This document shows, one piece after another, positions 25 to 59,525 of a stretch of DNA of 64,000 bases (position 1 is the first letter of the stretch; every line of letters begins with the position of its first letter). Below the pieces are notes generated by a model. It did not search any database. It was not told the DNA's origin and worked only from the letters and a program-made list of their open reading frames with translations. This stretch comes from Sphyrna mokarran. Its lineage: Eukaryota. Position numbers and translations under genes: made by a program. The stretch spans positions 38,750,001-38,814,000 of the forward strand of contig JAGIQG010000014.1 of the NCBI GenBank assembly GCA_024679065.1, read 5' to 3'.

Positions 25-265
25 CCTTAACCTATGCCCTCTTTTTTTTTCTCCCCTAGCCTCAGTGGAAAAAGCCTGCTTGCATTTACTCTATCTATAC
101 CCATCAAAATCTTATACACTTCTATTAAATCTCCCCTCATTCTTCTACACTCCAGGGAATAAAGTCCTAACCAATTCAATCTCTCTTTGTAACTCAGCTT
201 CTCAAGTCCCAGCAACATCCTTGTGAACCTTCTCTGCATTCTTTCAACCTCATTTATATCCTTCC
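25..265 (-). mobile_element. CR1 LINE ORF2 C-terminal fragment
   Basis: Translation ERMQRRFTRMLLGLEKLSYKERLNWLGLYSLECRRMRGDLIEVYKI is typical of the CR1 ORF2 end. Confidence 0.9.
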
Positions 266-555
266 TGTAGTAACCTTCACAACCTTCTGTGAGAAGTATA
301 TTCTCCTTAGCTCTCTCTGTCTTGATCCTTCCTGCTCTTATTCTGCAACTATGACCTCTTGTCCTAGGCTGTTCTAGAAGGGGGAACATTTTGGTTAACA
401 TTTATTTATCAATCCTGGTGCATATTTTACATCCCTCAACCAATTCCCCCTCATTCTTCTGTACTCCAGCAAGTACAAGATCAAACTATTCAATTGCTCT
501 TCATATGATAGCTCCTTCAAACCAGGAATCAATCTAGTGAGTCTCTTCTGAACTC

Positions 556-4815: not shown

Positions 4816-5561
4816 GGGCCCGATTTTACCATTGCGTTTTCAGAAGCTAAAACTTGGTAAAGTTGAGTGTGAGGCGCTAGTGTGATGCGCACCTGCTTCC
4901 ACGGAGGTGTGGTCTTTGTCAAGGCCCAAAGATGGCCACAATTAGGACCATGCCCGAAGCAGGCAAGATGGCCGCTAAAATGCATCTACATACATTTAAA
5001 TTGACTTAATGGGCTGCATGCCCAACTTTACCAGCACTTTCCCCTTTACCATTGCATTTACCCAACCACAATCAGAACGAAAATAAAAAGCTCCATATAA
5101 GTTGGATTTAGGCGCTCCAGTTAGTGAGGAGGTAAGCGCCAAGCATCTAATGGCTCTCTGCTTGAGATCAATAGGGGAAGGGTGAGGCAGAAATGGGGTC
5201 ACTCTGCCTGAGATCTGTGGGGGGAAGGAGGAAAAGAGAATAAGGGGGTCAGTAATGTTGGGGGTGGGGCAAAGTCTGTGGGGGGCATGGGGAGCCATTA
5301 TCCAACCTGGGAGGGATGTGGTAAGGGATTTTATCATTTTTTTTGCGCATGTGCAGTTGGAGGTGCTGACTGGAGCTGCTGGATTTTGTGTTAAGCCCCA
5401 CCCACAGATTTGTGCAGTGCGATTCGATATCGCTGATTTTTTTTTTTTTGCAGGCAGAGTGTGTGTGGGGACGCCTGAGAACGGCTCCAAAAGTCAGAAC
5501 TGAAACACTCCCAGTTTCAAGTCCACCCAGCACTGAGAATCAAAATGGCAAAATAGGATCC
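4816..5561. mobile_element. PIF/Harbinger-type non-autonomous DNA element
   Basis: Imperfect TIRs GGGCCCGATTTTACCATT / AATGGCAAAATAGGATCC with TTA on both sides; second copy at 56820-57674. Confidence 0.75.
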
Positions 5562-9190: not shown

Positions 9191-10201
9191 GTTTCTAATA
9201 TATAATTTCTAGCATCTGATGAATGAGACAGCAGTTCATGTTATCTACAGCAGATTTTTTGAAAAAGTATTTCATAGGACGTGAGCATTGCCAGCAAAGG
9301 GTTGCAATCATGCAGGAAAGAAATGAGTTATCCTGTTACGAATATATAAACTGGTGTCACTGAGCATTTTCTGGTAAATTAAGTTCCTGGAATTGTGTGT
9401 TTATTGTTTGACTTTTTTGGTTCTGGTTGCATTTGCTCATTAAAATTGTCATTAAGCTTCTGATATCCATATTTGCATGTAATTTGCCATACCTGATTCA
9501 TTTTTATTTCATGTTATCTGACAGAAGGAGAAAAATAAATCTCACTTTTGCAGCTGAAAGGCAAATGAAAGATGGAATATTGAGACAGACAGAATTGAAA
9601 TCTGCCTGGCAGGAAACAGCTATAGGTAGCTCAATGGCTTAATTTTCACCTGCAGCTTCTACAGAACAGACTAGTAGTCATCATCTTCATCCACTTTGCA
9701 CATTCACATCGAAGTAGAGTTTTATATGCAGCATTAGATAAAGGGGAAAGGGGAGGGTAACGGCATACATCAAAGGCCTAAAATAGCAGAAGCTCGAGAG
9801 GATACAGAATATGCAAGAGGGAACTTAAAAGGAAATTAGGAAAGCAAAATGGGGACATGAAAGGATGCTAAAGGTAAAATAAAGGAAAATCCTAACTTGT
9901 TTTACAAGATTAGGGTCCATTAAGGACCCAAGTGGTAATTTCTATGTGGAGCTGAAGGATGCAAGTAGGGTTCTAAATGAATACTCTGTGTTGATGTTCA
10001 CTTGATAGACATCAAGAAGGACTGATGTAATTAAATAAATTAACATAGTCACAGAGGAGGCTCTGAGGAGTCTGGAAGGCTTAAAAGTAGGAACATTTTC
10101 AGGACCGATGAAATATATCCCTGGCTGTCGGATGAAACAAGGAAGAAAATAGCAGCAGCACTGGAAATAATTTTCAATTCCTCTCTGGCAACTGGAGAGC
10201 T

Positions 10202-10248
10202 CAGTAAAGTTTTGCGACACCAATTTTAAATCCAACCATTAATAGTAA
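10202..10248 (-). mobile_element. 47 bp PLE-terminus-only insertion
   Basis: CAGTAAAGTTTTGCGACACCAATTTTAAATCCAACCATTAATAGTAA resembles 37722-37776. It is flanked by a perfect 12 bp TSD AACTGGAGAGCT (10190-10201, 10249-10260) inside CR1 RT sequence. Confidence 0.8.
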
Positions 10249-10621: not shown

Positions 10622-10781
10622 AGGGGGGCACAGTAGTAAGCATTGCTACCTCACAGCATCAGGGACCCAGGTTCAGTTCCTGGTTTGGGCCACTGCCTGT
10701 GCAGAGTCTATGCGTTCTCTTCAAGTCTGTGTGGATTTCTTCCGGTTTTCTCCCATAGTTATGAAAGATGTGCTGATTAGC
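10622..10781 (+). mobile_element. HE1-like tRNA-derived SINE, 3'-truncated
   Basis: A-box/B-box-like head followed by the HE1-type core. Confidence 0.8.
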
Positions 10782-10880
10782 TGCACTGGCCTAATTGAAT
10801 CCAGAATTGCCTGAGTGGCAGGAAACAGAGACCAATGGTCCAGGGGTGTTTTTCTGAATGTGGGATCCACAGGGATCATT

Positions 10881-11052
10881 TAATTAGCACATCTTTCATA
10901 ACTATGGGAGGAAACTGAGTACTCAGAGGAAACCCACACAGCTTGGAGAGAACGTGTAGACTCCGCACAGGCAGTGATCCAAACCAGGAATTGAACCGGG
11001 GTCCTTGGTGCTGTGAGGCAGCGGTGCTAACCACTGTGCCCCCGTGCTGCTG
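10881..11052 (-). mobile_element. HE1-like SINE, 3'-truncated
   Basis: Reverse complement GGCACAGTGGTTAGCACCGCTGCCTCACAG...GGTTCAATTCC. Confidence 0.85.
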
Positions 11053-11592: not shown

Positions 11593-11745
11593 ATGATGTA
11601 GAGATGCCGGCGTTGGACTGGGGTAAACTCAGTAAGAGTCTGGTAACGCCAATTTACCTGACGAAGATGAAAGTCGAAAGCTTGCAGATTTACTATCAAA
11701 TAAATCGGTTGGATTTAAAATTGGTGTTGCCAGACTCTTACTGAG
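11593..11745 (+). mobile_element. Miniature PLE-derived inverted-repeat element (subfamily A ends)
   Basis: Inverted tail plus terminus (11593-11655) joined to hammerhead plus sense terminus. The 28 bp IR 11628-11655 / 11718-11745 has 2 mismatches. AAATTTTTAA occurs near both flanks (11578-11587, 11746-11755) as a possible TSD. Confidence 0.85.
11652..11689 (+). ncRNA. Minimal hammerhead ribozyme with shortened helix II
   Basis: ATTTAC-CTGACGA-A-GAT-gaaa-GTC-GAAA-GC-TT-GCAGAT. The core is intact, helix II is 3 bp with a GAAA tetraloop, and helix I has one A-C mismatch. Confidence 0.75.
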
Positions 11746-12109: not shown

Positions 12110-12405
12110 TTTATTTATTTATTAGTTACAAGCTAATTCACATTAGCACTTGCAATAAAGTTACTGTGAAAATCCCCTAATTGCCACCCTCTAGTGCCTG
12201 TTCAGATACATTGAGGGAGAATTTGTCTTGACCTATGCACCTAACCAGCACATCTTTGGACTATGGGAGGAAACTGGAGCACCTGGAGGAAATCCATGCA
12301 GACAAGGGGAGAATGTGCAAACTCCACACAGACAGTGACCCAAGTTCAGAATCAAACATGGTTTCTTGGCGCTGTGAGGCAGCAGCGCTAACCACTGTAC
12401 CATCC
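12110..12405 (-). mobile_element. HE1-like SINE
   Basis: GGGAGGAAACTGGAGCACCTGGAGGAAA...TGTGAGGCAGCAGCGCTAACCACTGT. Confidence 0.85.
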
Positions 12406-13235: not shown

Positions 13236-13742
13236 AAGTGTAAAATGTGAAGCAGCCATCCAGAAACTAGACAAATGTTTCAGAAAGCAGTGTTATTTCT
13301 GAATTTTCTTGGGTTTCCACAACAAAGTGGAAGAGGGTGAGAAACAGCTTGATATACCTTTCCAGTAACCACAGATTTTGCTTTGATTTTTAATAGTTAA
13401 ACATTCGTAAGGGATTATTGTCTAGAAGGTGTTTATTTGTGTATTCTGATCAAGTAAGTTTTTTGGCTGGATGTTGTAAGGCAGTTTTGACTGTGTAACT
13501 TTGATCCTGCGTGCTTCAATTTTATTTTTTTCTTGTTACTAAATCTTTTAAATGTAAAATTCCAAAAACATTGCTAGAGTCCCATATTGCTAGGATCAGT
13601 GGTTCATTCGCTCATTTTCAAAATGTAAAAAATAGGTATGATCAGTAATGATGTGGAGATGCCTGCATTGGACTGGGGTAAACATAGTAAGAAGTCTCAC
13701 AACACCAGGTTAAAGTCCAATAGGCTTATTTGGTAGCACAAA

Positions 13743-13783
13743 CCACTAGCTTTTGGAGTGTTGCTCCTTCATCAGGTAAGTGG
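13743..13783 (-). ncRNA. Degenerate hammerhead motif (subfamily B)
   Basis: Reverse complement: CCAC-ttac-CTGATGA-A-GGAG-caaca-CTCC-AAAA-GC-TA-GTGG. GAAA is mutated to AAAA, so it is probably inactive. Confidence 0.65.
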
Positions 13784-15335
13784 GAGTTCTGTTCACAAAC
13801 AGGGTATATAAAGACACAAACTCAATTTACAAAATAATGGTTAGCGTGTGAGTCTTTACAGGTAATCAAGTCTTCAAGGTACAGACAACGTGAGTGGAGA
13901 GAGGGTTAAGAACAATTTAAAGAGATGTATATTGTCTCCAGCCAGGACAGTTAATGAGATTTTGCAAGTCCAGGCAAGTTGTGGGGTTACAGGTAGCGTG
14001 ACATGAATCCAAGATCCTGGTTGAGGCCGTCTTCATGTGTGCCAAACTTGGTTATCAGTCTCTGCGTTGTCATGTGTTATGAAAGCCGCCTTGGAGAATG
14101 CTTACCCTAAGATCAGAAGCTGAATCCTTGTGACCGCTGAACTGCTCCTCAACAGGAAGAGAACACTTTTGCCTGATGATTGTCGGGCGGTGTTCATTCA
14201 TCCATTGTTGTAGCATCTGCATAGTCTCCCTGCAAGCCCACGGACAACTCCGTGATGCTCCACTTCTCCAGCTTCCACCCTAAACACATATTAAAGAAGC
14301 TGTTCCATACGGACAAGCCCTCTGTATACACAAAATCTGCTCAAATGAAGAGGATCATAATAGACACCGCCAAATGTTGAAAAATGCCCTCACAAGAATA
14401 AGATATGGTGCTCGACTCATCGATCGATAGTTCTGATGCATCACACTGAAAAACTGCACCAATCTCCTCAGAAGACAAATATGGGACATAGCGGACAGAG
14501 TACCAGTCATCGTTCAGTATTTCTCCGGAGTGGAGAAGCTACGACATCTTCTCTGGAGCCTTCAACATGTCATTGACGAAGGCGAACATCTCACCATGGC
14601 CATCCCCACACCTCCACTTTTTACCTTCAAACAACCACACAACCTCAATCAGACCATCATCTGCAGCAAACTAGCCAGCCTTCAGGAGAACAGTAACCAT
14701 GACACGACACAACCCTGCCACAGCAACTCTGCAAGATGTACCAGATCATCAACACGAATGCTATGACCTCAAGTGAGAAACCATTCACCAGGTACACGGT
14801 ACATACACTTGCAACTCTGCCAACGTTGTCTACCTGATATGCTGCAGGAAAGAATGTCCCGAGGCACAGTACATTGGGGAGACCATGCAGAAGCTATGAC
14901 AACAGATGAATGAACAGTGCTCAACAATCACCAGGCAAGATTGTTCTCTTCCTGTTGGGGAACACTTCAATGGTCATGAGCATTCAGTTTCTGATTGTTG
15001 GATAAGCGTTATCCAAGGTGGCCTTCACGACACACGATACAGCAGAGTTGCTGAGCAGAGACTGATAGCCAAGTTCCATACACATGAGGATGGCCTCAAC
15101 CGGGATCTTGGGTTCATGCAACACTATCTGTAACCCCCCCAACTTGTCCGGGCTTGCAAAATCTCACTAACTGTCCTGGCTGGAGACAGTACACACCTCT
15201 TTAACCTGTGCTTAACCCTCTCTCCACTCACATTGTCTGTATCTTTAAGACTTGATTACCTGTAAAGACTCGCATTCCAACCATGATTTTGTAAATTGAG
15301 TTTGTCTTCATATGCACTGTTTGTTAACAGAACTC

Positions 15336-15376
15336 CCACTTATCTGATGAAGGAGTAGCACTTCAAAAACTAGTGG
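15336..15376 (+). ncRNA. Degenerate hammerhead motif (subfamily B)
   Basis: CCAC-ttat-CTGATGA-A-GGAG-tagca-CTTC-AAAA-AC-TA-GTGG; the core is mutated. Confidence 0.55.
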
Positions 15377-17437
15377 CTTGTGCTGCCAAATAAGCCTGTT
15401 GGACTTTAACTTGGTGTTGTGAAACTTTTTACTATGATCAATAAGACAGGTTTCTCTCTGGGATTTGTCTTTCTCAGCGAAGAACCACAGCAGATGTTAT
15501 AACATTACATTCTTGGTGTCCTTTACTTTTTTTTCCCTCTAGATTCACTTTTGCTCTTGTCTCGAACTTCTTGTATAGGCAAGTCCCATCATCTCTCTCT
15601 GACTCTCTTGAGCTGCTGAGATATTCAGCCAACATCAAGAATGCTAATGAATCAGAAGATTTTTGAATTTAATTCTGCTAATTTATTACATAGTCTGCTT
15701 TACACTTTCTTGTCTGTGACAGAATGACTTTCCATTAAACTTTGCCATGAACCTTAACTTTCAAACAGATCATGTTAAGAGCCCCATTGATGTTCAGTGG
15801 AAGGACTTCCGAAACTCCAAACACAAACCTTGGAATCTATTTTTGCGATTTGGGGAAAAAATTGAGAAAAGAAATGAAATCCAGTAAGGAAAGACATCAG
15901 CCTTGTTTTAAATTATTTAAATAACAAAATATTTATTCATTTTTGAAACATAGAGCAAAAAAGACAACAGTTCAGGACAGCATTTATAATTAACTGCAAT
16001 AATAATTACTTAAATAAATATACTTAAATAAATCCCCAATCTAAATCTGCCTACCTTCCTAAACTCAGAATACACTTTCCCCAAAACAGCTTCCCATAAA
16101 TTTTAGCACTATGAGACACATCCAGTGAATAATTAACCACATAGGACGTATAGCTTCCTTTTGAGAAACTTTTCTTCTACTTTAGAGTCGAAGTTGCGGG
16201 CTCTGGCATCGACAGACTTCTGGTTTTTTTTTTTGCACAACAATTTGATTCCCAGAAAGAGCTCTGCTTTGCAACTGGGTGTGGCCATGATCAAGGTCTC
16301 TAGATAGTGGGTTTCCACTTTGCTTAATGCTATATCTGTTTCAGCCTGCCATTAGCCTACTCTGCATCCCACAAGTCCTGAGTGCAGCCAAGTTTTGATC
16401 AGTTTCTTTTTAATTAATTCTTTATTTATATTTCATTTCCAACTTTTCAATGCACTAAATAGTGAAGAATAAATGAATAGTATGAGTAACAAATAGTTAT
16501 TAGGTTTAGTTTACTTCTCTTGGAAGACATAAGCTTTATTCTTAAAAATTTGGCATTTTCTTGATCCCACCATTGTTGAATCTTATTTTGCTTGAAAATT
16601 TGATACAGAGGCTGGATTTTCACAAAGTTGGGATATCTCGGGTGCTCTTTAAAAATGACAGGCAGCTCAGAATTCTGAATTCCCAACACCAATCCTGGGC
16701 TTCTGATTTTCAGGATTTTGTCAACAAAAAAATCTGAATGGAAAACTGTACATGTATTTGATGGGCAAAAGATAGTGGGAGGGTATCTTGTGAGTTTTTG
16801 CAATTGGTATATCCAATTTATTCTTCTCACACACAATATATCAACATATGTACCTTACAATCACTGGGCTGAGCAGCAGAGGCAGATTACACAAATATCA
16901 AGAAGAGAAAAGAAAATACATTAGTTGCTGTGAGACGTTTTTACTCACATGCCTATTGTAAATTGGAGATCTGACAAAATTCTTTCCCCCAAAAGCTCAT
17001 AAATCTTTGGAACTCTTTCTGAAAAGGCAGTGGAAGCAAAGTCTTTGAATGTTTTTTAAGGCAGAGATAGATTTTTATTAAGTAAGGGAGTGATGGGTTT
17101 TCAGGGGTAGGTGGGATGCAGATTTGAAGTTACAATCGGATCAGCCATAATCTTATTAAATGGTGAAGCAGGCTTGAGAGGCTGAATGGCCTACTCTTGT
17201 TCCTTGTTCGTATATTGGAGTTGTTTCCTATGCAACTATCTACAATGTTTGGCAACGTTTCTTGTAATTTGCCCAAACCAATCACTTATTGAACCAAATT
17301 TGTGCAGCATGCTATAAACTATGGTAAATCTGGTGCCCCAAATCCTCCAAATATTTTCTGTAGCTCTCAGAAATGATCAATATCTGTTCTGTTACAATAG
17401 TATCTAACTCTCATATATATCAAAGGTAATTTTTCAA

Positions 17438-17544
17438 TCCACCCTAAACACATTAAAGAAGCTGTTCCATACGGACAAGCCATACGGACACAAGGTCTGC
17501 TCAAATGAAGAGGATCCCAATAGACACCGCCAAATGCTGAAAAT
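17438..17544 (+). repeat. Isolated internal PLE fragment, apparent copy of 14274-14385
   Basis: Shares GCTGTTCCATACGGACAAGC, TCAAATGAAGAGGATC and TAGACACCGCCAAATG with 14274-14385; no PLE termini. Confidence 0.8.
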
Positions 17545-19379
17545 CTTGTGGTCCAGATGGGGAGCCAATTTACCAATGAGCATAAGTCAGAGAAACAAGT
17601 CTGGAATGTTGGGATTGAGGAACTATCTTCTTTGTGACCTTTTTTGATCATGAGTTCTGAGTGTCCAGTTTCTTCAGTGAATTCTTTTCATCTGTACTCT
17701 ATAAGGTATTGTTAATTTTGATTTTTATAAATAATCGTTATGTGCAAAGAGAGGTATCTCTGATACGATATTGAAATAATGGTACACCATAATTCACTCA
17801 GACACACTGTTCAAATAGTTGTTAAAGGCATAATAGAAGCTTTCTAAACAATATGTGGAGCTAAATAAATATTAGTAGTTTAGAATATAAGCAGATGTTC
17901 CATTAAGTTTAGGAATACAAGATGAATTATTCAGTCCATTTATACAAGGTCATTCAACTGAAATCCATCATTTCAGTCTCTGGTTGCCAAGTTGATTTGC
18001 AATGCTAACAAGAAACAACTAACATTAATATATCTCCTAATAGGAAATGAATGTATGTAAACTGCAAAAGGAGAATTTAATGCCCTCCCCTGAGGCAAGT
18101 TTGGAGGCAGGATAATACCAGGTAGAGAGTCTCCTGCCGTCCCACCTCTATCTGCCCCAATTAAGTCAGAGGTGGGAAGCTTGTGAATGTCCTTCTTCTC
18201 CACCAATTGAGGCTTTTAAGTGGACAATTAATGCTCACTTAAGAATGTTATTCTGATGGCATTGGCATTTAGCCAGCAGTGAGTAGCACAGTCCCAATGC
18301 AGGGAGCCAGAAAAGCAAAACCTAGGATATTTGCTTGCAGTTTTCAGGGTCATGATGGGAGACTTTTTGTCAGGTACTCAGCACCTGATTCATCTTTGTT
18401 CTTGGCCTGTCTGTAGGCTATGAGATGGTAGATTACATCAATTATCCTCCAAACTTTTCTACTATCATCTATCTGGATAGGATTGTACATGCCTGATTTC
18501 ATTCTTATTTATCTAATCATAACCACCTACAATTTACCCCTATTGTCTGCAATTATCTATTTCTAATATCTTTATTTTCTGCATCCTAAGTGCCATTATC
18601 CAAAAACACAAGATCAGTATCCACACATAAACTTAAAAATAAACAATACTTCACCATTGCCTCTTCTTTAAACCATGGTGTTTGTAAACTTGGTATCACA
18701 TTTGATTGTGAGATGAATTTTCAGTGACATATTGGTGCCACACTCAAACTATAGGGGCAATCTTACCAAAAGAATTCTAACAGTCAAGCAACAGTAAAAA
18801 TGGAAGAGAATTGTACTTACTATTTGGCGGGATTTCAGATATGATCTTATGCTACTTAGTGCAAAAGTGAGGTAAAGTGTGATTCCCACCAGTAGGAGAA
18901 GTGGATTGAGTCTATTCTTACCAGAAAGCCAGTTGATGACAACTAGATTGTGCTACTGTACATGTGCCTCAATTTCACAGTATTCTGTGTACAAGTGTAC
19001 AGAATACAGTGAGAGATCTATCACCCTCTTTAATACTCCCCTCCCTCCCGAGAAGTCACCCCCACATCACTCCCAGGCATTGCCCCTCCAGTCTCTGGCC
19101 TCTGGCCCAGCACTGGCCTCCCCAGCCAATTGCTGTCCTTGTGCCCCTGCACCCACAATCGATCCCTATCCTGATACTCTCTTTGGTTGATTGCTGCCCT
19201 GATTGATCCAAGATTGCTGAGTGCACAGCTGTCCCCTCACATCATTTTATTCACCTCTCCTTAGGCCTCAACTCTTGGCACTGCCTGGTGCTGTGTGGGC
19301 AATGTCAGTATGCTCAATGGAAAGAGTCAGACTGGCAATGCCAGCTTTGCCTAACTTTACCCATGCCTCAGTTTGTCTG

Positions 19380-22734: not shown

Positions 22735-23088
22735 GAGACGGTGACACAGTAGCAAAACAGTTAGCACTGCTACCTCACAGATCCAATGATCTAGGTTCAA
22801 TTCCAGCCATGGGTGACTGTGTAGAGTTTCACATTCTCCCATGTCCGCGTAGTTTTTCTCCAGGTGCTCTGGTTTCCTCCAAAGATATGCAGGTTAGGTG
22901 GATTAGCCATGCTAAGTTGCCCCTTAGTGTCCCAAGATGTGTAGGTTAGGTGAATTAGTCATGGTAAATATGGTTACAGAGATGGGCCGGAAAGAGGGCC
23001 TGGGTAAGATATCTGTCAGCGAGTCAGTGCAGTCTTGATGGGCCAAATGACTCTTTCAGCACTGTAGAGATTTTATGCTTCTATGATT
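22735..23088 (+). mobile_element. HE1-like SINE, full length
   Basis: tRNA head, core GATATGCAGGTTAGGTGGATTAGCCATGCTAA and CR1-like tail. Confidence 0.85.
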
Positions 23089-24323: not shown

Positions 24324-24925
24324 TGGAGACCACGCAGATACTACGACAACGAATGAATGAACACTGCTTGATAATCACTATGCAGGAGTGTTCACTTCCT
24401 GTTGGAGAACACTTCAGCAGTCACAGGCATTCAGCCTCTGATCTTTGGGTAAATGTTCTCCAAGGCGGCCTTCGCATCATATGACAATGCAGAATGACTG
24501 AGCAGAAACTGACAGCCAAGTTCTACACACATTAGGATGGCCTCAATTAGGATTTTGGGTTCATGTCACACTACCTTTAACCCCACGATTTGCCTAGGCT
24601 TGTAAAATCTCACTAACTATTCTGGCTGGAGACAATACATATCTCTTTAACCTGTGCTTGGCCCTCTCTCCACTCACATTGTTTGTACCTTTAAGACTTG
24701 ATTACCTGCAAAGACTCGTATTCTAACCATTATCTTGTAAATTAAGTTTATATATGTATAAACTTAATAATATGTATGCCCTGTTTGTAAATACAACTCC
24801 TCATCTGAAGAAGGAGCGAGACTTTAAAAGCCTGTGATACTAAATAAACCTGTTGGACTTAAACCTGATGTTATGAGATTTCTTATTGTGCTTACCCCAG
24901 TCCAATGCCAGCATCTCCACATCAT
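24324..24925 (+). mobile_element. PLE 3' fragment (subfamily B) with full tail and no inverted arm, inserted in a CR1 remnant
   Basis: GIY-YIG C-terminal remnant, 3' UTR, decayed hammerhead at 24801-24837 and tail ...CCCCAGTCCAATGCCAGCATCTCCACATCAT. TACTG occurs at both junctions. Confidence 0.9.
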
Positions 24926-35420: not shown

Positions 35421-37775
35421 ATTCACTTGGAGTCTAGGCATTGTCTGAAATATGACAGCATTTGTTGTGCTGTTAAGCCCTTAGTTGTACATACTGCTTT
35501 TTAATTGACAAATCTTTTAATTTGTTACTTGTTACGAGTTACTAAACTTTGCAATACCAGAATGCATTTAATGGTCTGACAAAATGAGGATAAATAAAAA
35601 TAGAGCATCCTGGCCCTCCCTCAGTGATCTACAACACAACGGGGCAACATTCCCCAAAAAAAGTCAGTGTCCAATGTGCAGAAAAATGGGAGGTTTTCCT
35701 GCCTATTTTTGGGGAGAGCTGAGTTTTGTGAATTTATGGCACTCTGCAAGACAGGGGTTATCAGGCGATTCATGCCAGTGAAGGGGGACTGGAACCTAAA
35801 CCTGCTGGAGAGGCCAGCAACAGACTGCTCAGGCAGCCATTGGACGTGTGCCAATCTCCCAGTATACTGGAAGATGGGTTGACATCTCATCCCCACAGTT
35901 GCCTCGGGCAGGGTTTTCCGGGCTTGGGATGAGCAAGGCTGGAAAATCCCTCTCCTTATATTTCTGGCTAGCTCCATTGCATTACTCTGTATCCGAACTC
36001 GCATCAAATCCCATGAACCCCTGAGTTCACCGATCTATTTCTGCTTCATAATTTTAATTGCTGGTTCTGACCCCACCCCTCAACCATCACTTCTCTCCCA
36101 GCCCCAGGAAGCAGCAACAGAGATGCAACAAATAATAAACATACCCACATTTGTACAACATTCAGCCATCAGTTAGCATCTAAACATGGACCAGACAGAT
36201 GGCAGGTGGTCATAAAGTAGCTCCCAGGGAATATAGAGTGACTAGCACTGGTCAGGAATGGTTCCATTTCATACTATAGTGTCCAGGTGATATCTTTGAT
36301 TATTGCAATACTGGTAGAATAGACTCGGTTCTCTAAGAAATCATTCTTGAAAGTTTAGATCTTTTAGAATTTAGATCTGTTGCTTGGGAATATAAAGAAA
36401 GACCAATGTAGACAGGAGAGCATTGCAATTCCTGGAGAGGATTTTATGCATGGCCTTTCTACATATTTCCAAGTCAACCATGATTGCCGACTGCTCTGAT
36501 CAATTCTTCAATTTGATGGGCTTTGTGCCTTTCTGACAAACCAGACTGCCTTTTCTCCTCCTCCAATTCTTTATGGAAACAGAAGTTGTGTAATAATACA
36601 GAAAACCATCACAAAGTGCAGAATTCAACTTGCAGCATTCTGCAATGTTTTTCTGGATTGATCAAACTTCCATATGACGATTTGATAACTGCAATTAGCT
36701 TTCTGTCTTGAAGTTCTGTTTAGAGGCAGGCACTCATGGTGCTATCATTACCTGGGGAAGCAAAAGGAAGGCTTTGTTGTTGAACATCAGATAGCTCTAT
36801 ATCTGATAAAAGGAACTGGATTGTTGCAAAATTATTACAGCTCCAAGCAAAGTGGACATTGACACATGGGATTCATTGCTGCTGATTATAGGCCAGCTGT
36901 TCATTGATTGCGTGAAGTCCTTTCTCTGTAAGGAAATTCATGTGGTTTATAGATGAAACTAATTAATACCATGATAATTATCATTATACCCTGAGGGAAA
37001 TCAACCTTTCAATGGTTGTATAGCGGTAATTGTACTGATGCATGCTGGGATCTCTCCACAGTGCTTATTGCCATGACTGTGGAATTCTGGGATTTATAGT
37101 CTTATGCATACTTCTCACGTATCCAATGCCATAAAATATCAGCAAATGTGTACATTATTCTGAAATATGAAATTGTCATATTTTTATGTTACAAACTTTA
37201 TTTGTAGCATTAAAAATTTCAATTGACAGCTGAAAGGATTTTGTATTTTATTTCTGAGTGATTTAGTTTCATTATTGTTCTTATCCCCATTGCCAGATTT
37301 TTGTTACTATTCATAGTTATAGGTTTGCTGTTGTTTTCAAAATATGAGAAGTGAACCAATTATACTCATGTCTAGGCTTCCATGATGGGATAGTCTTGCT
37401 TTCCTTTTTGCTCACAGTGTGAGTTAATTGACTTTTATAGGACATTACTATATTATATAATGAAAAATATATTATTTTGGTAGCATGGTGCAACTTAAAG
37501 GATGCCAAATCTAATAATGTTAAGTAACACAGGTTCAGATCAGATTGGTTTTTGGTACACAGGTATTAGCTTCCGTTTTTAAAGGCGCAGTCACTCAAAA
37601 AGTACAGATTATGTTGAAACTGAGTTGATTGTCTTTGTTTCCTTGACACTTTTTTGGAGCTGTACTAGGAAAAAAAAGGAACAGTGAGATAGATTGGAAA
37701 TGCCTATTGGACATAAGAACTCAGTAAGAATTTAGCAACACCAATTTTAAATCCAACCGATTTATTTGATAGTAA

Positions 37776-37817
37776 ATCTGCAAGCTTTCGACACTCTTGT
37801 GCCTTCGTCAGGCAAAT
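37776..37817 (-). ncRNA. Minimal hammerhead ribozyme, inverted-arm copy
   Basis: Reverse complement reads ATTTGC-CTGACGA-A-GGCAC-aaga-GTGTC-GAAA-GC-TT-GCAGAT (cleavage-site base U instead of C). Confidence 0.85.
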
Positions 37818-38031
37818 GCAGTGTTCTGGTCTGCAATTGCACACATATCAACACAGACAGTCACAGATTGCTGATTAGAATGCGAATCCTAACATCTAAC
37901 CTGCTATTCAAGTGTTCAAGTGGCTAACAATGTGTGTGAAGGGAATCCTGAGCATTGGTTAGAGAATTGTGTATTTTCTCCAGACAGCACAGTAAGTGAG
38001 GTTTTTTGCTAACCCAGGCAAGTTACGGGGG

Positions 38032-38530
38032 TTACAGATAGTGTGTCATGAAGCCAAGATCCCTATTAAGACCGTCCTCATGTGTGCGGAACTTGGCTAT
38101 CAGTCTCTGCTCAGCGACTCTGCGCTGTCGTGTGTCACGAAGGCCCCCTTGAAGAACATTTACCCGCAGGTCGGAGGCCGAATGCCCATGACTGCTGAAG
38201 TGTTCGCCCACAGGAAGGGAACTGTTTTGCCTGGTGATTGTTGAGCGATGCTCATTCATCCGCTGTCGTAGTGTCTGCATGGTCTCCCCAATGTACCATG
38301 CTTCGGGACATCCTTTCTTGCAACGTATTAGGTAGACAACGTTGGCCGAGTTGCAAGAGTATGTACCGTGTACCTGGTGAATGGTATCCTCACGTTTGAT
38401 GATGTCGTCCATGTCTATGATCTGGCATGTCTTGCAGAGGTTGCTGTGGCAGGGTTGTGTGGTATTGTGGTCACTGTTCTCCTGAAGGTTGGGTAGTTTG
38501 CTGCGAACAATGATCTGTTTAAGGTTGTGC
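38032..38530 (-). pseudogene. Inverted duplicate of the PLE GIY-YIG C-terminal coding region
   Basis: ORF 38032-38598(-) matches 40096-40476(+) with about 9 amino-acid differences over 126 residues. Confidence 0.9.
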
Positions 38531-40476
38531 TGCCCCCGACTGGACATGTATGCCCAAGCCATCAGGAGGTGCATGAACACCAGATTCATCAACCGCACTT
38601 ACAGGACAGTCCCGAACATCACCCAAGCACAAAGCAAGGCCATCCGTGCTCTCAAGACCAACCGCAACATTGTCATCAAACCAGCAGACAAAGGAGGCGC
38701 CACCGTCATACTGAACAAAACGGACTACTGTGAAGAAGTGTACCGACAACTAAACAACGTGAGACACTACAGACAGTTATCAGCGGATCCGACCAAAGAA
38801 CACACTCGTCAACTCAATACTCTGATCAAATCCTTTGATCCGGACCTTCAGAACACCCTCCGGGCTCTCATTCCACGTACTCCCCGCATTGGAGATCTCT
38901 ACTGCCTCCCAAAGATACACAAGGCAAACATACCCGGCCGTCCCATCGTATTGGGCAATGGGACCCTGAGTGAGAACCTCTCCGGCTATATCGAGGGCAT
39001 CCTGAAACCCATTGTACAAGAACCCCCAGCTTTTGTCTTGACACTACGGACTTCCTACAGAAACTCAGCATACATGGAGCAGTTGAACCAGGGACACTCC
39101 TTGTCACAATGGATGTCTCGGCGCTCTACACCAACATCCCCCACGATGATGGTATTGCTGCAACTGCCTCAGTACTCAATGCCAACAACTGCCAGTTTCC
39201 GGATGCAATCTTACAACTCAATCGCTTCATCTTGGACCACAATGTCTTCAACTTCAACAATCAGCTTTTCATCCAGACACACGGAACAGCCATGGGGACC
39301 AAATTCGCACCTCAGTATGCCAACATCTTCATGCACAGGTTCGAACAAGACTTCTTCACCACACGAGCTCTTCAACCAAGGTTATATACTAGATACATTG
39401 ATGACATCTTTTTCCTTTGGACTCATGGTGAACAATCATTGAAACAACTGTATGATGGTATCAACAAGTTCCATCCCACCATCAGACTCACCATGGACTA
39501 TTCTCCAGAATCAGTTGCATTCTTGGACACACGCATCTCCATCAAGGACGGTCACCTCAGCACCTCACTGTACCGCAAACGGACAGACAACCTCACAATG
39601 CTCCACTTCTCCAGCTTCCACCCTAGACACGTTAAAGAAGCCATTCCCTATGGACAAGCCCTCCGTATACACAGAATTTGCTCAGATGAGGAGGATCGTG
39701 ACAGACACCTCCAGCCGCTGAAGGATGCCCTCGTGAGAACAGGATATGGCGCTCGACTCATCGATCGACAGTTCCGACGTGCCACAATGATAAACCGCAC
39801 TGACCTCCTCAGAAGACGAACACGGGACACGGTGGACAGAGTACCCTTTGTTGTTCCAGTACTTCCCCGGAGCGGAGAAGCTACGACATCTTCTCCGGAG
39901 TCTTCAACATATCATTGATGACGATGAACATCTCGCTAGGGCCATCCCCCCCTCCCACTTCTTGCTTTCAGACAACCGCACAACCTCAAACAGATCATTG
40001 TTCGCAGCAAACTACCCAACCTTCAGGAGAACAGTGACCACAATACCACACAACCCTGCCACAGCAACCTCTGCAAGACATGCCAGATCATAGACGTGGA
40101 CGACATCATCAAACGTGAGGATACCATTCACCAGGCACACAGTACATACTCTTGCAACTTGGCCAACGTTGTCTACCTAATACGTTACAAGAAAGGATGT
40201 CCCGAAGCATGGTACATTGGGGAGACCATGCAAACACTACGACAGCGGATGAATGAGCATCGCTCAACAATCACCAGGCAAAACAGTTCCCTTCCTGTGG
40301 GCAAACACTTCAGCAGTCATGGGCATTCGGTCTCCGACCTGTGGGTAAATGTTCTTCAAGGGGGCCTTCGTGACACACGACAGCGCAGAGTCGCTGAACA
40401 GAGACTGATGGCCAAGTTCCGCACACATGAGGACGGTCTTAACAGGGATCTTGGCTTCATGACACACTATCTGTAA
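38531..40476 (+). pseudogene. PLE reverse transcriptase-GIY-YIG endonuclease ORF, 5'-truncated, ~3 frameshifts
   Basis: Motifs IVIKPADKGGATV, LYCLPKIHK..PGRPIV, MDVSALYTNIP, QTHGTAMGT, RYIDDIF and NVVYLIR.KKGCPEAWYIGET are spread over ORFs 38489-39442, 39109-39918, 39848-40093 and 40096-40476. Frameshifts fall near 39020, 39855 and 39955. Confidence 0.92.
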
Positions 40477-40690
40477 CCCCCGTAACTTGCCTGGGTTAGC
40501 AAAAAACCTCACTTACTGTGCTGTCTGGAGAAAATACACAATTCTCTAACCAATGCTCAGGATTCCCTTCACACACATTGTTCGCCACTTGAACACTTGA
40601 ATAGCAGGTTAGATGTAAGGATTCGCATTCTAATCAGCAATCTGTGACTGTCTGTGTTGATATGTGTGCAATTGCAGACCAGAACACTGC

Positions 40691-40732
40691 ATTTGCCTGA
40701 CGAAGGCACAAGAGTGTCGAAAGCTCGCAGAT
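40691..40732 (+). ncRNA. Minimal type I hammerhead ribozyme in PLE 3' UTR
   Basis: ATTTGC-CTGACGA-A-GGCAC-aaga-GTGTC-GAAA-GC-TC-GCAGAT. Helix I is ATTTGC/GCAGAT, the core is intact, helix II is GGCAC/GTGTC and helix III is the palindrome AGCT. Predicted cleavage is after C40726. Confidence 0.85.
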
Positions 40733-41369
40733 TTACTATCAAATAAATCGGTTGGATTTAAAATTGGTGTTGCTAAATTCTTACTGAGTTCTTACTACCC
40801 CAGTCCAATGCCGGCATCTCTACATATTGGACATAGGGACAGGGAATGAATGGAGGAAGGATATTTTAGTGGGTAAATATGCTGCTGCTGATCTCAATCT
40901 AGTAAACAGGATCCAAAACTATCAAAGAGCAATTGGAAACTCCAGTGCTAATAAAATGTTACTTGTTCCCAATCTTAAGTCTAGTTCTATAGTAGAACTT
41001 TACAGCCAGGTGGCACTGTCAGGTTGACACTGCCTGGGCATGTCCTTGTTCTACCAATGTCCATATTTATGTTGGAGCCCGTGGCAGGACCCCCTTCAAC
41101 TGTTTCCCGGTTTCACAAATCTGTTGCAAACTTTGCAGATGCGGCATCATGTTTCAATACTGTCTCGGGTGGATAATGTGGAAGGAGGATCTTTAAATGT
41201 ATTAAAATGAATTTAAATGTGGAAAGGTTGGGAACCTCATTAATTCACCAGTGGGAGGTGGAGAAAATCGTTTCCCAAATCTCATGACGTTTTCCCATGT
41301 GGACATTCTCGCTGATGTTGACAATTAATCAGCTTGTGAATGTTGGTGCGAAATCACCCCTCTGGCCTG

Positions 41370-45186: not shown

Positions 45187-45502
45187 AAGAACAAAGAACA
45201 AAACAGCATGGGAAACAGGCCCTTCGGCCCAACGAGCCTGCGCCACCACCCCGATGTTCCCACCTCTACCTGCGATCCCTGTCCATGTTTATTGATCTAC
45301 AGATTAAAGACCAAATTTGAGACAATTTAGGGAGAATTTGTTTTGCCAATTAGCTTAAGAGCACATCTTTGGGATGTGGGAGGAAACTGGAGCACCTGGA
45401 GAAAACCCACATAAGCACAGGGAGAATGCACAAACTCCTACAGACACAGGCCCAAATCCATGTATCTGCACAGCACAGCGATAGTCACTGAGCTGTTGTG
45501 TC
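45187..45502 (-). mobile_element. HE1-like SINE
   Basis: TGTGGGAGGAAACTGGAGCACCTGGAG core plus AAAGAAC tail repeats. Confidence 0.8.
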
Positions 45503-47351
45503 GTGGATCAAATGGTCCAGGTCAAGCGTACACTAATGACGTGAAGCACTAGGATACTCTCAAAAAAGATCCAAAAGCAGCCCTCTCACGACCCATCGCG
45601 TGTATGCCTCTTGTTAGACAACAAGGTGGACCAAAGCACCTGTAGGATAAATTATTAGTGACTTAAATCCTGATTATTTGAAATTTTTCTAACCTACAAT
45701 GAATTTCTCCAACAGAAAGAATGCTGGTTCATCTTTGGTGGAGATCAGATGCTCTTGGTAAGGTCAGTTGTCCCTTGGGAGAGGTAAAGTATCACTTTTG
45801 ATTGTTAAAAAAAGGCACAAATGTGCGTAAGAAGTACATAAACTCATAACTGTCAATTCTATTAGAATTGCCAAAAGTGTTCAAATGTTCTATTAAATGC
45901 AACTGTCAAACATTTTAAAATGAAGTGTCAAAGGCAATTGGAAAGCTGTCAAGGCTTTTGAAAGTCTTGACTTTTAAAACTTTGAAAACACTTCTGGAAT
46001 GTTTTTTTAATGCTTATTATTTCACTCTATCTGTTCACATAAACTTAAGGATAATATAGGGAAAGGAATAGACCATTCATCACATCAAGCTTGCTCTGCC
46101 ATTTAATATGGCTGATCAGACACTTCAATGCTTTTTACACTCAATATCCCCATAATCTTTTACGTTATTGTAACACAAAATGTTACCATTACAAAGTTGC
46201 CTTCTCAAACTCAATTAGGGATGGACATGAATGTTCGTCCAGCCAGCAAAAGCTGTATCCCTTGAAAATACAAACAATTGTGTTGCATTAGTAATTTCAC
46301 AACTTGCTGTTATCACCTTCTAACTCACAGTTTGATTGACAGCTGCAAGTGCTCTTAACTTTTTGCTGTTGGGCTATAAATGCCAATTTGCTTTTTTATA
46401 TAAGGGATTAAGCACATGAAATGTTTGTTTTTATAAGGATATAATTGATGGAATATAAATATGGTCAATGTTTTTTCATGAAAAAGTATGTTGTTTCAAA
46501 TTAAATCTACAATAGACCATAACAGTTTCATTTTAATCTCAGCATGGATCCGAGGTCTGTCCATGTTAGATACGAGATCAAATAGCATAGTAGTCGTACG
46601 GATAAATGGTGGTGGGAGAGGTAGCGGTTTGCCTGAGCTGGTACTAAGTTAGGATGGGAGAAGTCAGGGTTACGGGGTGAATGGAGAGGCATGGATTGGC
46701 TTGGAGGGCATGAAGAATGATAGGGGTTGGTTAAAGTGCATTACGAGGCATGCATTGACATTAATAGAGCATGGAGAGTGTGTATGGGGTGTGAAAGATG
46801 AGAGTAGAAGGCCTGTTTTTTAAAACCTTGGACATTGTACCAGAACACAGAGGCAGGTCCTCTCCACAGCTCAACTTCACACCCAGCAGCCTATGCACTC
46901 ATTCAGAGAGAAAATGAAGAAAATTTGAAAGAATGTAAGTAATCCAGGACACTAAGAGAATTATTTACTTCACTGAGAGAGATGTGGAGGCAATGCAGCA
47001 GGAGGATAAACAAAGGAAGATTCCCATTTTTCTAATCACATTCCAGATAGGAAGTAGCAAGAAGATAAAACAAAACCCCATTTGGAGAGGAAATCCATAC
47101 TGGTAAATGTTCCTGCTGTCACTATCAGGAGGTTTACAGTGATAGGAGTCCATTACATTTGCTGCCTTCAGTGGATTGGCAGACAGGCTTGAAAGCAACA
47201 CTTATATTTCAAGGAGCTGCACATTTCATTTATTTGTTGAAAATCTTGCCGTTTTTCAGATGATCATATGCACATTCAGTGTACATTAGTGCATCATGAT
47301 GCATTCACCATGTGTAAAATATCCTATGATAGATTCTGCTCTACTCACTGC

Positions 47352-47605
47352 ATAGAATCCGTACATTGTAGAAGAAGATTATTTGGCCCACTGAACCTGC
47401 ACCGACAATATTCCCACCCAGACCTTATCCTCCTAACCCCATGTATTTACCCTGCTAATCCCCTGACACTAAGGATCAACTTAGCATGGCCTGTGGGAGG
47501 AAACCCATGCAGTCACAAGGAGAATGTGCAGACTCCACACAAACAGTTACCCAAAGCTGGAATTGAACCAGGTCCCTGGCGTTGCGAGGCTTACCGCTGT
47601 GCTGT
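47352..47605 (-). mobile_element. HE1-like SINE
   Basis: CATAGAATCC tail, core and B-box reverse complement GGAATTGAACC. Confidence 0.8.
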
Positions 47606-52739: not shown

Positions 52740-52907
52740 AAAGATGTGTGGATTAGGTTGATTAGTCATGCTAGTGTCAGAGGAATTAACAGGGTAAATG
52801 TGTGGGGTTACGGGAATAGGGCCTGGGTGGGAATGTTGTCATTGCGGAGTCAATGGGCCAAACGGACTCCTTCTGTACTGTTGGGATTCCATGATTCTAT
52901 GATTCTT
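52740..52907 (+). mobile_element. HE1-like SINE 3' half
   Basis: CCAAAGATGTGTGGATTAGGTTGATT...GATTCCATGATTCTATGATTC. Confidence 0.75.
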
Positions 52908-54305: not shown

Positions 54306-54622
54306 GGGGCAGCATGGTGGCATAGAGGTACCTTGCTGCCTCATAGCACTAGGGCCCGGCTTCCATCCTGGCCTCGAGTGACTGTTTGTGTGAAGTCTGC
54401 ATGTTTTCCCTGTGTCTGCATGGGTTTCCTCCGGGTGCTCCAGTTTCCTCCCACAATCTAAAGATGTGCAGGTTCGATTGATTGGATATGCTTAAGTACC
54501 CCTTAGTGTCAGAAGGATTAGTAGGGTAAATGTGTGGAGTCCCTGGGATAGGGCATGGGTGGGATTGTTGTCAGTGCAGGCTCTTTAGGCCTCCTTCTGC
54601 ACTATAGGGGCTGATTGATTCT
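54306..54622 (+). mobile_element. HE1-like SINE, full length
   Basis: GGGGCAGCATGGTGGC head; GGGTTTCCTCCGGGTGCTCCAGTTTCCTCCCAC core. Confidence 0.85.
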
Positions 54623-56065: not shown

Positions 56066-56190
56066 CTTTACCAGTAAGACCCATGTGGACAGGAGGAGAA
56101 CATGCAACCTCTACACAGACAATGACCCAAGCCAGTATTCAAATCCAGGCCCTTGGCACTGTGAGGCAGCAGTGTCAGCGAGCTGCCCAC
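56066..56190 (-). mobile_element. HE1-like SINE 5' fragment
   Basis: GGCACTGTGAGGCAGCAGTG head in reverse orientation. Confidence 0.7.
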
Positions 56191-56819: not shown

Positions 56820-57674
56820 AGGTCCAATTTTACCATTGTGTTGCACTGATTTTCAGATGTGGAAATGTGGTAAAGTTGGGTTTGAGGCGAATAGTGCAAT
56901 TTGTGCCCACTTCTGTGTCGGATCCCCCCTTTATCAAGGCTCGGAAATGGCCATGATCGGGATAGCATCCGAAATGGGCGTGACGGCTATCTAAATGCAT
57001 TTGCATGCATTTAAACTGCATGCATTTAAATTGACTTAATGGGCTGCACAGCCAACCTTATTGGCACTTCCCCTTTTACCATCGTGTTCGCCCATCCAGA
57101 ATTACCATGGAAGAGACAGGCCCCATAAAAGTCCTATTTGGGCACTGCACTTAGTGAGGAGATAGATGTCTAGTATCTGACAGCTCTCTGCTTGAAATTG
57201 GTGGAGAGGACGGGGGACTGGAGGGTGGGAGGGGGGGAGTTTGCTGCCGCTTTGCCTGAGATCAGTGGAGGAGATTGAGGGGAGGGGGTATTTGCTGCCA
57301 CTCTGCCTGAGATCAGTGGGGAAGAGGGGAAGGGCCCGCAATTGGTCTGGGTGGCAGGGGTGGAGGATAAAGGGATCAGTAAGGGTGGATGGCACATTGT
57401 CTGTGGGAGTCAGGGGGGAAGCATTTTTTTGCCTGGGAGCAATGTGGCAGGGGAATGGCATTCAATCATTTTTTGTCTGCATATGCGCAGTTGGAGGCTC
57501 AGATCAGAGCTGCAGGATTTTGGGTGTGTTAACCTGCCCACAGGCTTGTGCAGTGCGATTCAGAACTGCTGGTATTTTTGCAGGCAGCGTGCATATGGGT
57601 CTAAACGTTGGATCTGAAACATCCCAGTTTCAAGTCCATCCAGCACTTAAAATCAAAATGGTAAAATAGGGCCC
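56820..57674. mobile_element. Second copy of the Harbinger-type element
   Basis: Colinear with 4816-5561 (e.g. CATTTAAATTGACTTAATGGGCTGCA); TIRs AGGTCCAATTTTACCATT / AATGGTAAAATAGGGCCC. Confidence 0.75.
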
Positions 57675-59199: not shown

Positions 59200-59525
59200 A
59201 GGCAGCACAGTAGTACAATGGTTAGCACTGCTGCTTCACAGCTCCAAGGAGCTAGGTTCAATTCCCAGTTTGGCTCACTGTCTGTGTGCAGTTTGAACAT
59301 TCTCCTTGTATCTGTGTGAGTTTCCTCCAGGTGCTCTGGTTTCCTCCCACAATCCAAAGATGTGCAGGTTAGATAGACTGGCCATGCTAAAATTGCCCCA
59401 TAGTGTCCTGAGATGTGTGGATTAGCTGTTGGATATGGGGATAGGGCCTGAATGGGATTATGGTTGGTGCAGACTCGATGGGCCAAATGGCCTCTTTCTG
59501 CACTGTACAGTTTCTATGATTCTTC
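59200..59525 (+). mobile_element. HE1-like SINE, full length
   Basis: GGCAGCACAGTAGTACAATGGTTAGCACTGCTGC head, GGTTCAATTCCC B-box and TTCTATGATTC tail. Confidence 0.9.

What the first reader, a model, noticed from the sequence alone, without database searches (positions are those of the whole stretch)
40691..40732. Intact minimal, dimer-type hammerhead ribozyme in a shark PLE, supported by covariation across six copies in this window
Seen: a complete hammerhead core with helices I and II, but helix III reduced to the palindrome AGCU. Helix sequences differ yet still pair between copies. Helix I is ATTTGC/GCAGAT (subfamily A) versus CCAC/GTGG (B); helix II is GGCAC/GTGTC, GAT/GTC or GGAG/CTCC. 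The cleavage-site base varies among C, U and A but is never G. Established: PLEs carry minimal type I hammerheads that cleave as dimers, so the class is not new. Inference: this shark family uses the ribozyme to process its RNA, and the young copies at 40691 and 37776 may still be active.
Basis: partly seen in the sequence, partly recalled or inferred. Interest (0 to 1): 0.7.

Follow-up and report, generated by a model that had tools for sequence, protein, structure and literature searches.

The report
Known-type hammerhead in shark Penelope retroelement
This is a real, intact copy of the small self-cutting "hammerhead" RNA motif already known at the ends of Penelope-type jumping genes, here in a broken shark copy and one of about 28,000 in the genome; it likely cuts only in pairs, and the copies tend to begin just in front of it rather than at its predicted cut.

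Summary
The motif at 40691-40732 is real: a complete minimal type I hammerhead (helix III reduced to AGCU) in the 3' pseudo-LTR of a 5'-truncated, frameshifted Penelope-like element. The class is published (Cervera and De la Pena 2014). The six-copy support is overstated. 40691 and 37776 are two arms of one insertion (11-bp target duplication), 11652 has a helix I mismatch, and all three subfamily B copies have lost G12. B's helix I is mis-registered. Genome-wide evidence is stronger: 28,340 exact cores against 1 in the control, with two-sided helix changes between subfamilies. Inserted copies decay at CpG rates; only 84 of 157 sampled cores are intact. Activity at this locus is unlikely, because the arms lie on opposite strands. 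Copy 5' ends do not pile up at the predicted cut (3 of 206, 5.5 expected). They pile up 5-12 nt upstream of the core (32 against 6.6 expected; also in subfamily B), which may mark the RNA's start. RNA ends could not be tested. The scan has noted this class and this lead before, in other shark genomes.

The parts
40691..40732 (+). Minimal type I hammerhead: helix I 40691-96/40727-32, CUGACGA 40697-703, extra A 40704, helix II 40705-18, GAAA 40719-22, palindrome AGCU 40722-25, predicted cut between 40726 and 40727
   Evidence: sequence
40685..40692 (+). Position where 5' ends of genomic copies of this family pile up (candidate RNA start; inferred)
   Evidence: 32 of 161 arms at risk end here, 6.6 expected
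40742..40747 (+). AATAAA 15 nt behind the predicted cut; possible poly(A) signal, untested
   Evidence: present within 45 nt in 199 of 218 intact cores (many loci were selected on an anchor that holds it)
40477..40794 (+). 3' pseudo-LTR of the direct arm
40795..40824 (+). PLE 'tail'; 3' ends of 206 arms fall in two groups, 93 at or before 40800 and 102 at or after 40815 (87 at 40825)
   Evidence: in L261 the tail runs into the ORF's ATG
38531..40476 (+). 5'-truncated, frameshifted PLE ORF: RT (RVT_1), C-x4-C-x2-C linker, GIY-YIG
37716..38530 (-). Inverted, 5'-truncated arm of the same insertion (98% identical over 817 nt)
37776..37817 (-). Second intact hammerhead (U17), in the inverted arm
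37705..37715 (+). Target-site duplication, left copy (TATTGGACATA)
   Evidence: sequence printed
40825..40835 (+). Target-site duplication, right copy
   Evidence: sequence printed
11652..11689 (+). Hammerhead of a ~150-bp inverted mini-insertion; core intact, helix II 3 bp, helix I with an A.C mismatch
13739..13781 (-). Subfamily B copy, G12 lost (approximate ends; C3 at 13775)
15338..15380 (+). Subfamily B copy, G12 and the palindrome lost (approximate ends; C3 at 15344)
24799..24835 (+). Subfamily B copy, G12 lost, deletion after AGC (approximate ends; C3 at 24805)

Best explanation
The motif is an intact minimal type I hammerhead in the pseudo-LTR of a broken copy of an abundant shark Penelope-like retroelement; in the element's source copies it likely cuts the RNA after position 17, slowly and only when two hammerheads pair through AGCU, while this copy is likely inert. 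Shown: the anatomy, the PLE context, about 28,000 exact cores, compensatory helix changes between subfamilies, and decay of inserted copies at CpG rates. Inferred: selection acts on the source elements, not on inserted copies. A tandem element (pseudo-LTR, ORF, pseudo-LTR, as in L261, with two motifs 3,024 nt apart on one strand) would put two hammerheads on one transcript and allow a 4-bp intermolecular helix III, probably with help from the element's protein as in the anole PLE. Most new copies appear to come from uncut RNA.
For: Anatomy matches the published min-HHR point by point (PMC4209133). 28,340 exact cores versus 1 in the reversed control; 28,340 of 31,374 cores with any two bases there carry GC. 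Among 212 intact-core motifs, helix II pairs 1-3 are 97%, 97% and 94% paired, with G-C/G-U/A-U (78/68/60) at pair 2 and C-G/A-U (166/15) at pair 3; helix I pair 2 is G-C/A-U (164/29). 22 distinct helix II arm pairs form 52 of 66 pairs against 41.2 in 5,000 shuffles, none reaching 52. Decay: G12 to A in 30 of 157, G8 to A in 32 of 157, other core positions 0-4 of 157, like flanks (0-3); two tail CpGs are changed in 20 and 26 of 83. Dimers cleave weakly (PMC4209133); the anole PLE hammerhead cleaves only with protein (PMC11167929).
Against: No cleavage was measured for this family. No excess of copy 5' ends at the cut: 3 at 40725-29 against 5.5 expected. The AGCU duplex is weak (-2.5 kcal/mol), the two-strand MFE is not the active dimer, and with flanking sequence a competing hairpin (UGCCU/AGGCA) leaves the hammerhead helices at 7% or less pairing probability. 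Helix I pair 3 is a C.A mismatch in 44 of 212 motifs. The shuffle control ignores relatedness and the sample over-represents one subfamily (38 of 212 share one helix II), so the covariation rests on a handful of independent changes. The motifs were selected on the core boxes, so core conservation is built in.
Confidence: 0.75

Rival explanations
1. The fold is conserved as a binding or folding element of the RNA-protein particle, or as part of the internal promoter, and cleavage is incidental.
For: No 5'-end excess at the cut. In the anole PLE, catalytic mutants still insert and no RNA-seq reads began or ended at the cut (PMC11167929). Naiads proliferate without canonical hammerheads (PMC8557442, passages). 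The motif sits directly behind the 5'-end pile-up.
Against: Every catalytic residue, the palindrome and the avoidance of G17 (4 of 212) are kept while helix II varies in sequence and length (94 distinct strings), which is what selection on chemistry predicts.
Confidence: 0.17
2. The copies at 40691 and 37776 are active ribozymes at this locus.
For: Both cores are intact and fold correctly in isolation. Pairing in trans with transcripts of other copies is conceivable, given 28,340 cores.
Against: Opposite strands of one insertion; a read-through RNA would carry 817 nt of self-complementary sequence that buries the motif. No upstream pseudo-LTR, broken ORF. Intact cores are the expected state of about half of all copies (84 of 157).
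Confidence: 0.06
3. The resemblance to a hammerhead is chance, amplified by transposition.
For: One ancestral sequence copied many times gives high counts without function; Rfam gives no hit.
Against: Two-sided changes between subfamilies with a fixed core, and the same motif at the same place in PLEs across animals (PMC4209133).
Confidence: 0.02

Closest known systems
Minimal hammerheads (min-HHR) in pLTRs of metazoan PLEs, including fish Xena, Poseidon and Neptune (Cervera and De la Pena 2014, PMC4209133)
   Same: Type I, in the pLTR, extra base between 9 and 10.1, G10.1-C11.1, palindromic 15.2-16.2, short helix I, many variant families, mostly single copies in truncated elements.
   Different: Host is a shark (the word does not occur in that paper's main text; supplements not seen). 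28,340 cores against about 4,000 in coelacanth and 9,000 in Xenopus there (different search rules). Helix II is 3-5 bp here, against 7-8 bp in the Schistosoma families.
PAc (Poseidon of Anolis carolinensis) hammerhead (Frangieh et al. 2024, PMC11167929)
   Same: Hammerhead near the pLTR-ORF junction; two groups of 3' ends that bracket a tail, as for PAc's two reverse-transcription start sites.
   Different: In PAc the ORF starts in stem II and the cut lies 26 nt inside the ORF; here the ATG lies about 95 nt behind the cut (L261). This element has the zinc-finger-like linker that Poseidon lacks.
Neptune/Nematis clades of EN+ PLEs (Craig et al. 2021, PMC8557442)
   Same: RT, CX2-5CxxC linker, C-terminal GIY-YIG, inverted 5'-truncated arm, tail at one end only.
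   Different: Clade not placed by a tree here.
Non-LTR retrozymes (bioRxiv 10.64898/2026.07.22.740005)
   Same: Type I hammerhead related to PLE pLTRs; reported in one chondrichthyan.
   Different: Those are non-coding head-to-tail repeats; this is a coding PLE end in an inverted pair.

Membership tests
min-HHR of metazoan PLEs | Core boxes CUGANGA and GAAA, U16.1, non-G at 17 | tested here: met
   (40691 and 37776)
min-HHR of metazoan PLEs | Helices I and II form and covary; type I topology | tested here: met
   control ignores relatedness
min-HHR of metazoan PLEs | Helix III reduced to a palindrome | tested here: met
   AGCU at 40722-25; 28,340 of 31,374 cores
min-HHR of metazoan PLEs | Extra base between 9 and 10.1; G10.1-C11.1 | tested here: met
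   A at 40704 (A in 155 of 157); G-C in 170 and G-U in 36 of 212
min-HHR of metazoan PLEs | Lies in the pLTR of a PLE | tested here: met
   220 nt behind the ORF stop; same motif in both pLTRs of L261
min-HHR of metazoan PLEs | Self-cleavage as a dimer, not as a monomer | not testable with these tools
   bench assay; folding is neutral to unfavourable
EN+ PLE | RT with C-terminal GIY-YIG in one ORF | tested here: met
   809-aa natural open frame in L227: RVT_1 E 1.4e-8, GIY-YIG E 3.7e-4, below its curated cut-off; GIY-YIG above cut-off in the inverted arm
EN+ PLE | pLTRs, inverted truncated arm, 30-40 bp tail | tested here: met
Neptune clade | CX2-5CxxC linker between RT and EN | tested here: met
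   CHSNLCKTC; shared with Nematis
Neptune clade | RT groups with Neptune references in a tree | not tested
   no labelled references held
Non-LTR retrozyme | Non-coding head-to-tail repeats, a hammerhead in each unit | tested here: not met
   coding element; the two motifs are inverted

The most novel reading that the evidence does not exclude
The element's RNA starts at the 5' edge of the hammerhead and is polyadenylated just behind the hammerhead of the next pseudo-LTR, so the ribozyme lies in a terminal repeat at both RNA ends. Reverse transcription that begins in the tail then runs to the RNA's 5' end like a retroviral strong-stop cDNA, and is either inserted as a 100-135 nt copy or jumps to the 3' repeat. 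The genome would thus hold a fossil map of PLE RNA ends showing that uncut RNA is the usual template.
Probability: 0.3. Interest if true: 0.55.

Novelty: new member of a known kind. Interest (0 to 1): 0.22.

Why it matters
The ribozyme itself adds a shark example to a class described in 2014. Two things have some use. A young family with about 28,000 intact cores in many subfamilies is a good data set for covariation and for bench tests of the dimer model. And what the hammerhead does for PLEs is an open question (PMC8557442, PMC11167929); the 5'-end pile-up in front of the motif, with none at the cut, gives one direct test (cap and cyclic-phosphate mapping) of whether cut or uncut RNA is copied.

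Tried and rejected
Rfam scan at E<=10: no hammerhead family. Loose pattern in the window: 11 hits against 5.8 expected, too weak alone. RNA ends: the two raw-read RNA runs laid 0 reads, so no test; six contig runs (X1, X19; X2, X3, X6, X10) hold related sequence but cannot show starts, ends or poly(A). No run of 10 or more A behind any of 206 arms. Explanations of the 5'-end pile-up considered: (a) the TGCA palindrome at 40687-90, which cannot be the whole cause because host-joined arms (8 against 2.1 expected), CCTCATT subfamilies and subfamily B lack or do not need it; (b) endonuclease preference for ATT (PMC11167929), which fits A (ATT at 40691, and smaller groups at 40731 and 40671-72) but not B (ACTCAC); (c) a 3' splice site, but there is no AG before 40690; (d) reverse-transcriptase stalling, expected (own knowledge) on the 3' side of a helix, not the 5' side. 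None is fully excluded; (a) and (b) may add to the A peak. Recombination at the repeat boundary (strand-transfer test) was not attempted: too few long copies. Pfam on six other long frames of the window gave nothing. Lunse et al. (PMC5785218) is not held; only its title in a reference list was seen.

Full report
Observation. The window at 40691-40732 holds a full hammerhead core with a 6-bp helix I, a 5-bp helix II, an extra A after position 9, and AGCU in place of helix III; the predicted cut lies between 40726 and 40727. The 42-mer folds into helices I and II on its own. A strict core pattern occurs 3 times in the window and never in 200 mononucleotide shuffles. Rfam has no matching hammerhead model at E<=10.

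Context. The motif lies 220 nt behind the stop codon of a PLE ORF with RT and GIY-YIG domains. The insertion runs from 37716 to 40824: an inverted, truncated arm (37716-38530, 98% identical), then the direct arm with pseudo-LTR and tail, flanked by an 11-bp duplication (read). The direct arm lacks about 245 N-terminal codons relative to L261 and breaks into at least three reading-frame pieces. The best named protein hits are sharks: Mustelus asterias 89%, Scyliorhinus torazame 82%, Heptranchias perlo 81% (120 of 1,208 hits listed). The C-x4-C-x2-C linker points to Neptune or Nematis (PMC8557442, passages); no tree was built. L261 shows the tandem form: pseudo-LTR, tail, ATG, ORF, pseudo-LTR, with two motifs 3,024 nt apart on one strand, both mutated.

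The six copies. All six exist. Two are arms of one insertion. One (11652) has a helix I mismatch. The three B copies have all lost G12, the general base (own knowledge), and two have further damage. The window therefore offers about two lineages, not six independent tests.

Genome-wide. The pattern CCTGANGAAGN{6,16}CGAAAGCT has 28,340 exact matches in the 2.77-Gb genome against 1 for the reversed control; with any two bases in place of GC there are 31,374 against 42. In all 370 stored loci plus the window, 212 distinct motifs had intact core boxes and a downstream AATA(A/C)A. Helix II pairs 1-3 are 94-97% paired, with two-sided changes at pairs 2 and 3; helix I pair 2 changes from G-C to A-U between A and B. 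Pair 4 of helix II is only 69% paired and helix I pair 3 is C.A in 44 of 212. Distinct helix II arms pair better than all 5,000 shuffles, but this control ignores relatedness and the sample is uneven. Position 17 is C 122, U 44, A 42, G 4.

Decay. I took arms by an anchor downstream of the motif, so that they were not chosen for an intact core: 99 arms from the first 100 of 17,206 matches and 107 arms from loci around the first 92 or so of 1,773 matches to a CpG variant of the anchor, all on contig C1. Of 158 arms that span the motif, 157 parsed and 84 are intact. G12 and G8, both in CpGs, are lost in 30 and 32 of 157, near the rate of two tail CpGs (20 and 26 of 83); other core positions change no more than flanks. 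Inserted copies thus show no sign of selection. Conservation of the core belongs to the source lineages (inference).

5' ends. If cut RNA were often copied, arms should begin at 40727. They do not: 3 of 206 begin at 40725-29, 5.5 expected. Instead 32 begin at 40685-40692, 6.6 expected. The interval was chosen on the first set (15 of 78 at risk) and held in the second (17 of 83). 24 of the 32 are inversion junctions, where the two arms of one insertion are not independent; 8 are joined to host DNA (2.1 expected, p 0.002). In 50 subfamily B arms (first 50 of 16,597 matches), 14 begin 2-12 nt upstream of C3 (p about 2e-6 against a flat background; B copies are older and ends are less sharp). Both subfamilies have a CA dinucleotide at -7/-6, in an initiator-like context (motif recalled). 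Drosophila Penelope has an internal promoter with an intron 46 bp behind the start (PMC2377424, passages), and that intron ends at helix I (PMC4209133). 3' ends fall in two groups that bracket the tail, as in the anole element. AATAAA lies about 15 nt behind the cut in most cores (199 of 218, partly by selection of loci). These facts fit an RNA that starts at the hammerhead and is mostly copied uncut; they do not show it. RNA runs gave no test.

Mechanism. Most likely the source elements use the motif as a weak, pair-dependent, probably protein-assisted ribozyme on tandem transcripts, and this locus is an inert fossil. Against easy activity: the AGCU duplex is worth -2.5 kcal/mol and a competing hairpin dominates in context.

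What is known. Cervera and De la Pena 2014 (PMC4209133; read parts 1-2 of 4, no supplements) describe this class, including fish Neptune elements, and report low dimer activity. Frangieh et al. 2024 (PMC11167929; parts 1-2 of 4) show protein-assisted cleavage that is not needed for insertion. Craig et al. 2021 (PMC8557442), Schostak et al. 2008 (PMC2377424) and the review PMC6765202 were seen as passages; the 2026 retrozyme preprint as part 1 of 5 plus passages. Four searches listed no paper on shark PLE hammerheads or on a 5'-end pile-up at the motif; subscription papers and supplements were not seen, and Lunse et al. was not available. The scan's own notes (22 findings, 8 shown, other genomes) report the same class and the same 5'-end lead; I had the lead before that look-up, and those notes are not independent support.

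Verdict.

Noticed in passing
window 11596-11745: A ~150-bp palindromic mini-insertion: inverted tail plus end, then a direct arm that starts at the hammerhead; AAATTTTTAA appears on both sides. Such back-to-back short pairs are common genome-wide (97 of 206 arms end at inversion junctions).
   Followed up: partly
window 13632-15436: Older subfamily B PLE insertion, also an inverted pair (13632-14230 minus, 14232-15433 plus), about 77% identical to the young element.
   Followed up: partly
window 10196-10237 and 17404-17572: Small PLE fragments: a 3' end without the hammerhead, and an RT piece.
   Followed up: no
window 40692-40708: Competing hairpin UGCCU-GACGA-AGGCA buries the first core box in subfamilies whose helix II starts GGC; it is broken in those that start GAC.
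   Followed up: partly
L096 (C446:20.0 Mb), minus strand near offset 8578: A different hammerhead-like motif with palindrome ACGU and unrelated flanks, probably another repeat family.
   Followed up: no
L228 and L229 (C335:51.64-51.66 Mb): A ~10-kb region with two near-identical clusters of nested A and B PLE pairs in opposite orientation; several same-strand hammerheads 1.3-2.8 kb apart.
   Followed up: no
window 10627-11050, 12210-12401, 22745-22952, 45325-45455, 47351-47590, 52772-52893, 54338-54591, 56081-56172, 59202-59484: A dispersed ~150-250 bp repeat family in at least nine copies, SINE-like by size; not identified.
   Followed up: no
window 27-401 (minus): Frame that resembles the C-terminus of a CR1/L2-type LINE ORF (recalled likeness; no Pfam hit).
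   Followed up: partly
window 4986-5557 and 57016-57670: Two ~70% identical copies of a further repeat.
   Followed up: no
L227 2567-5059: An 830-codon natural open frame of the young family, fused at an inversion junction; indicates recent activity of the family.
   Followed up: partly
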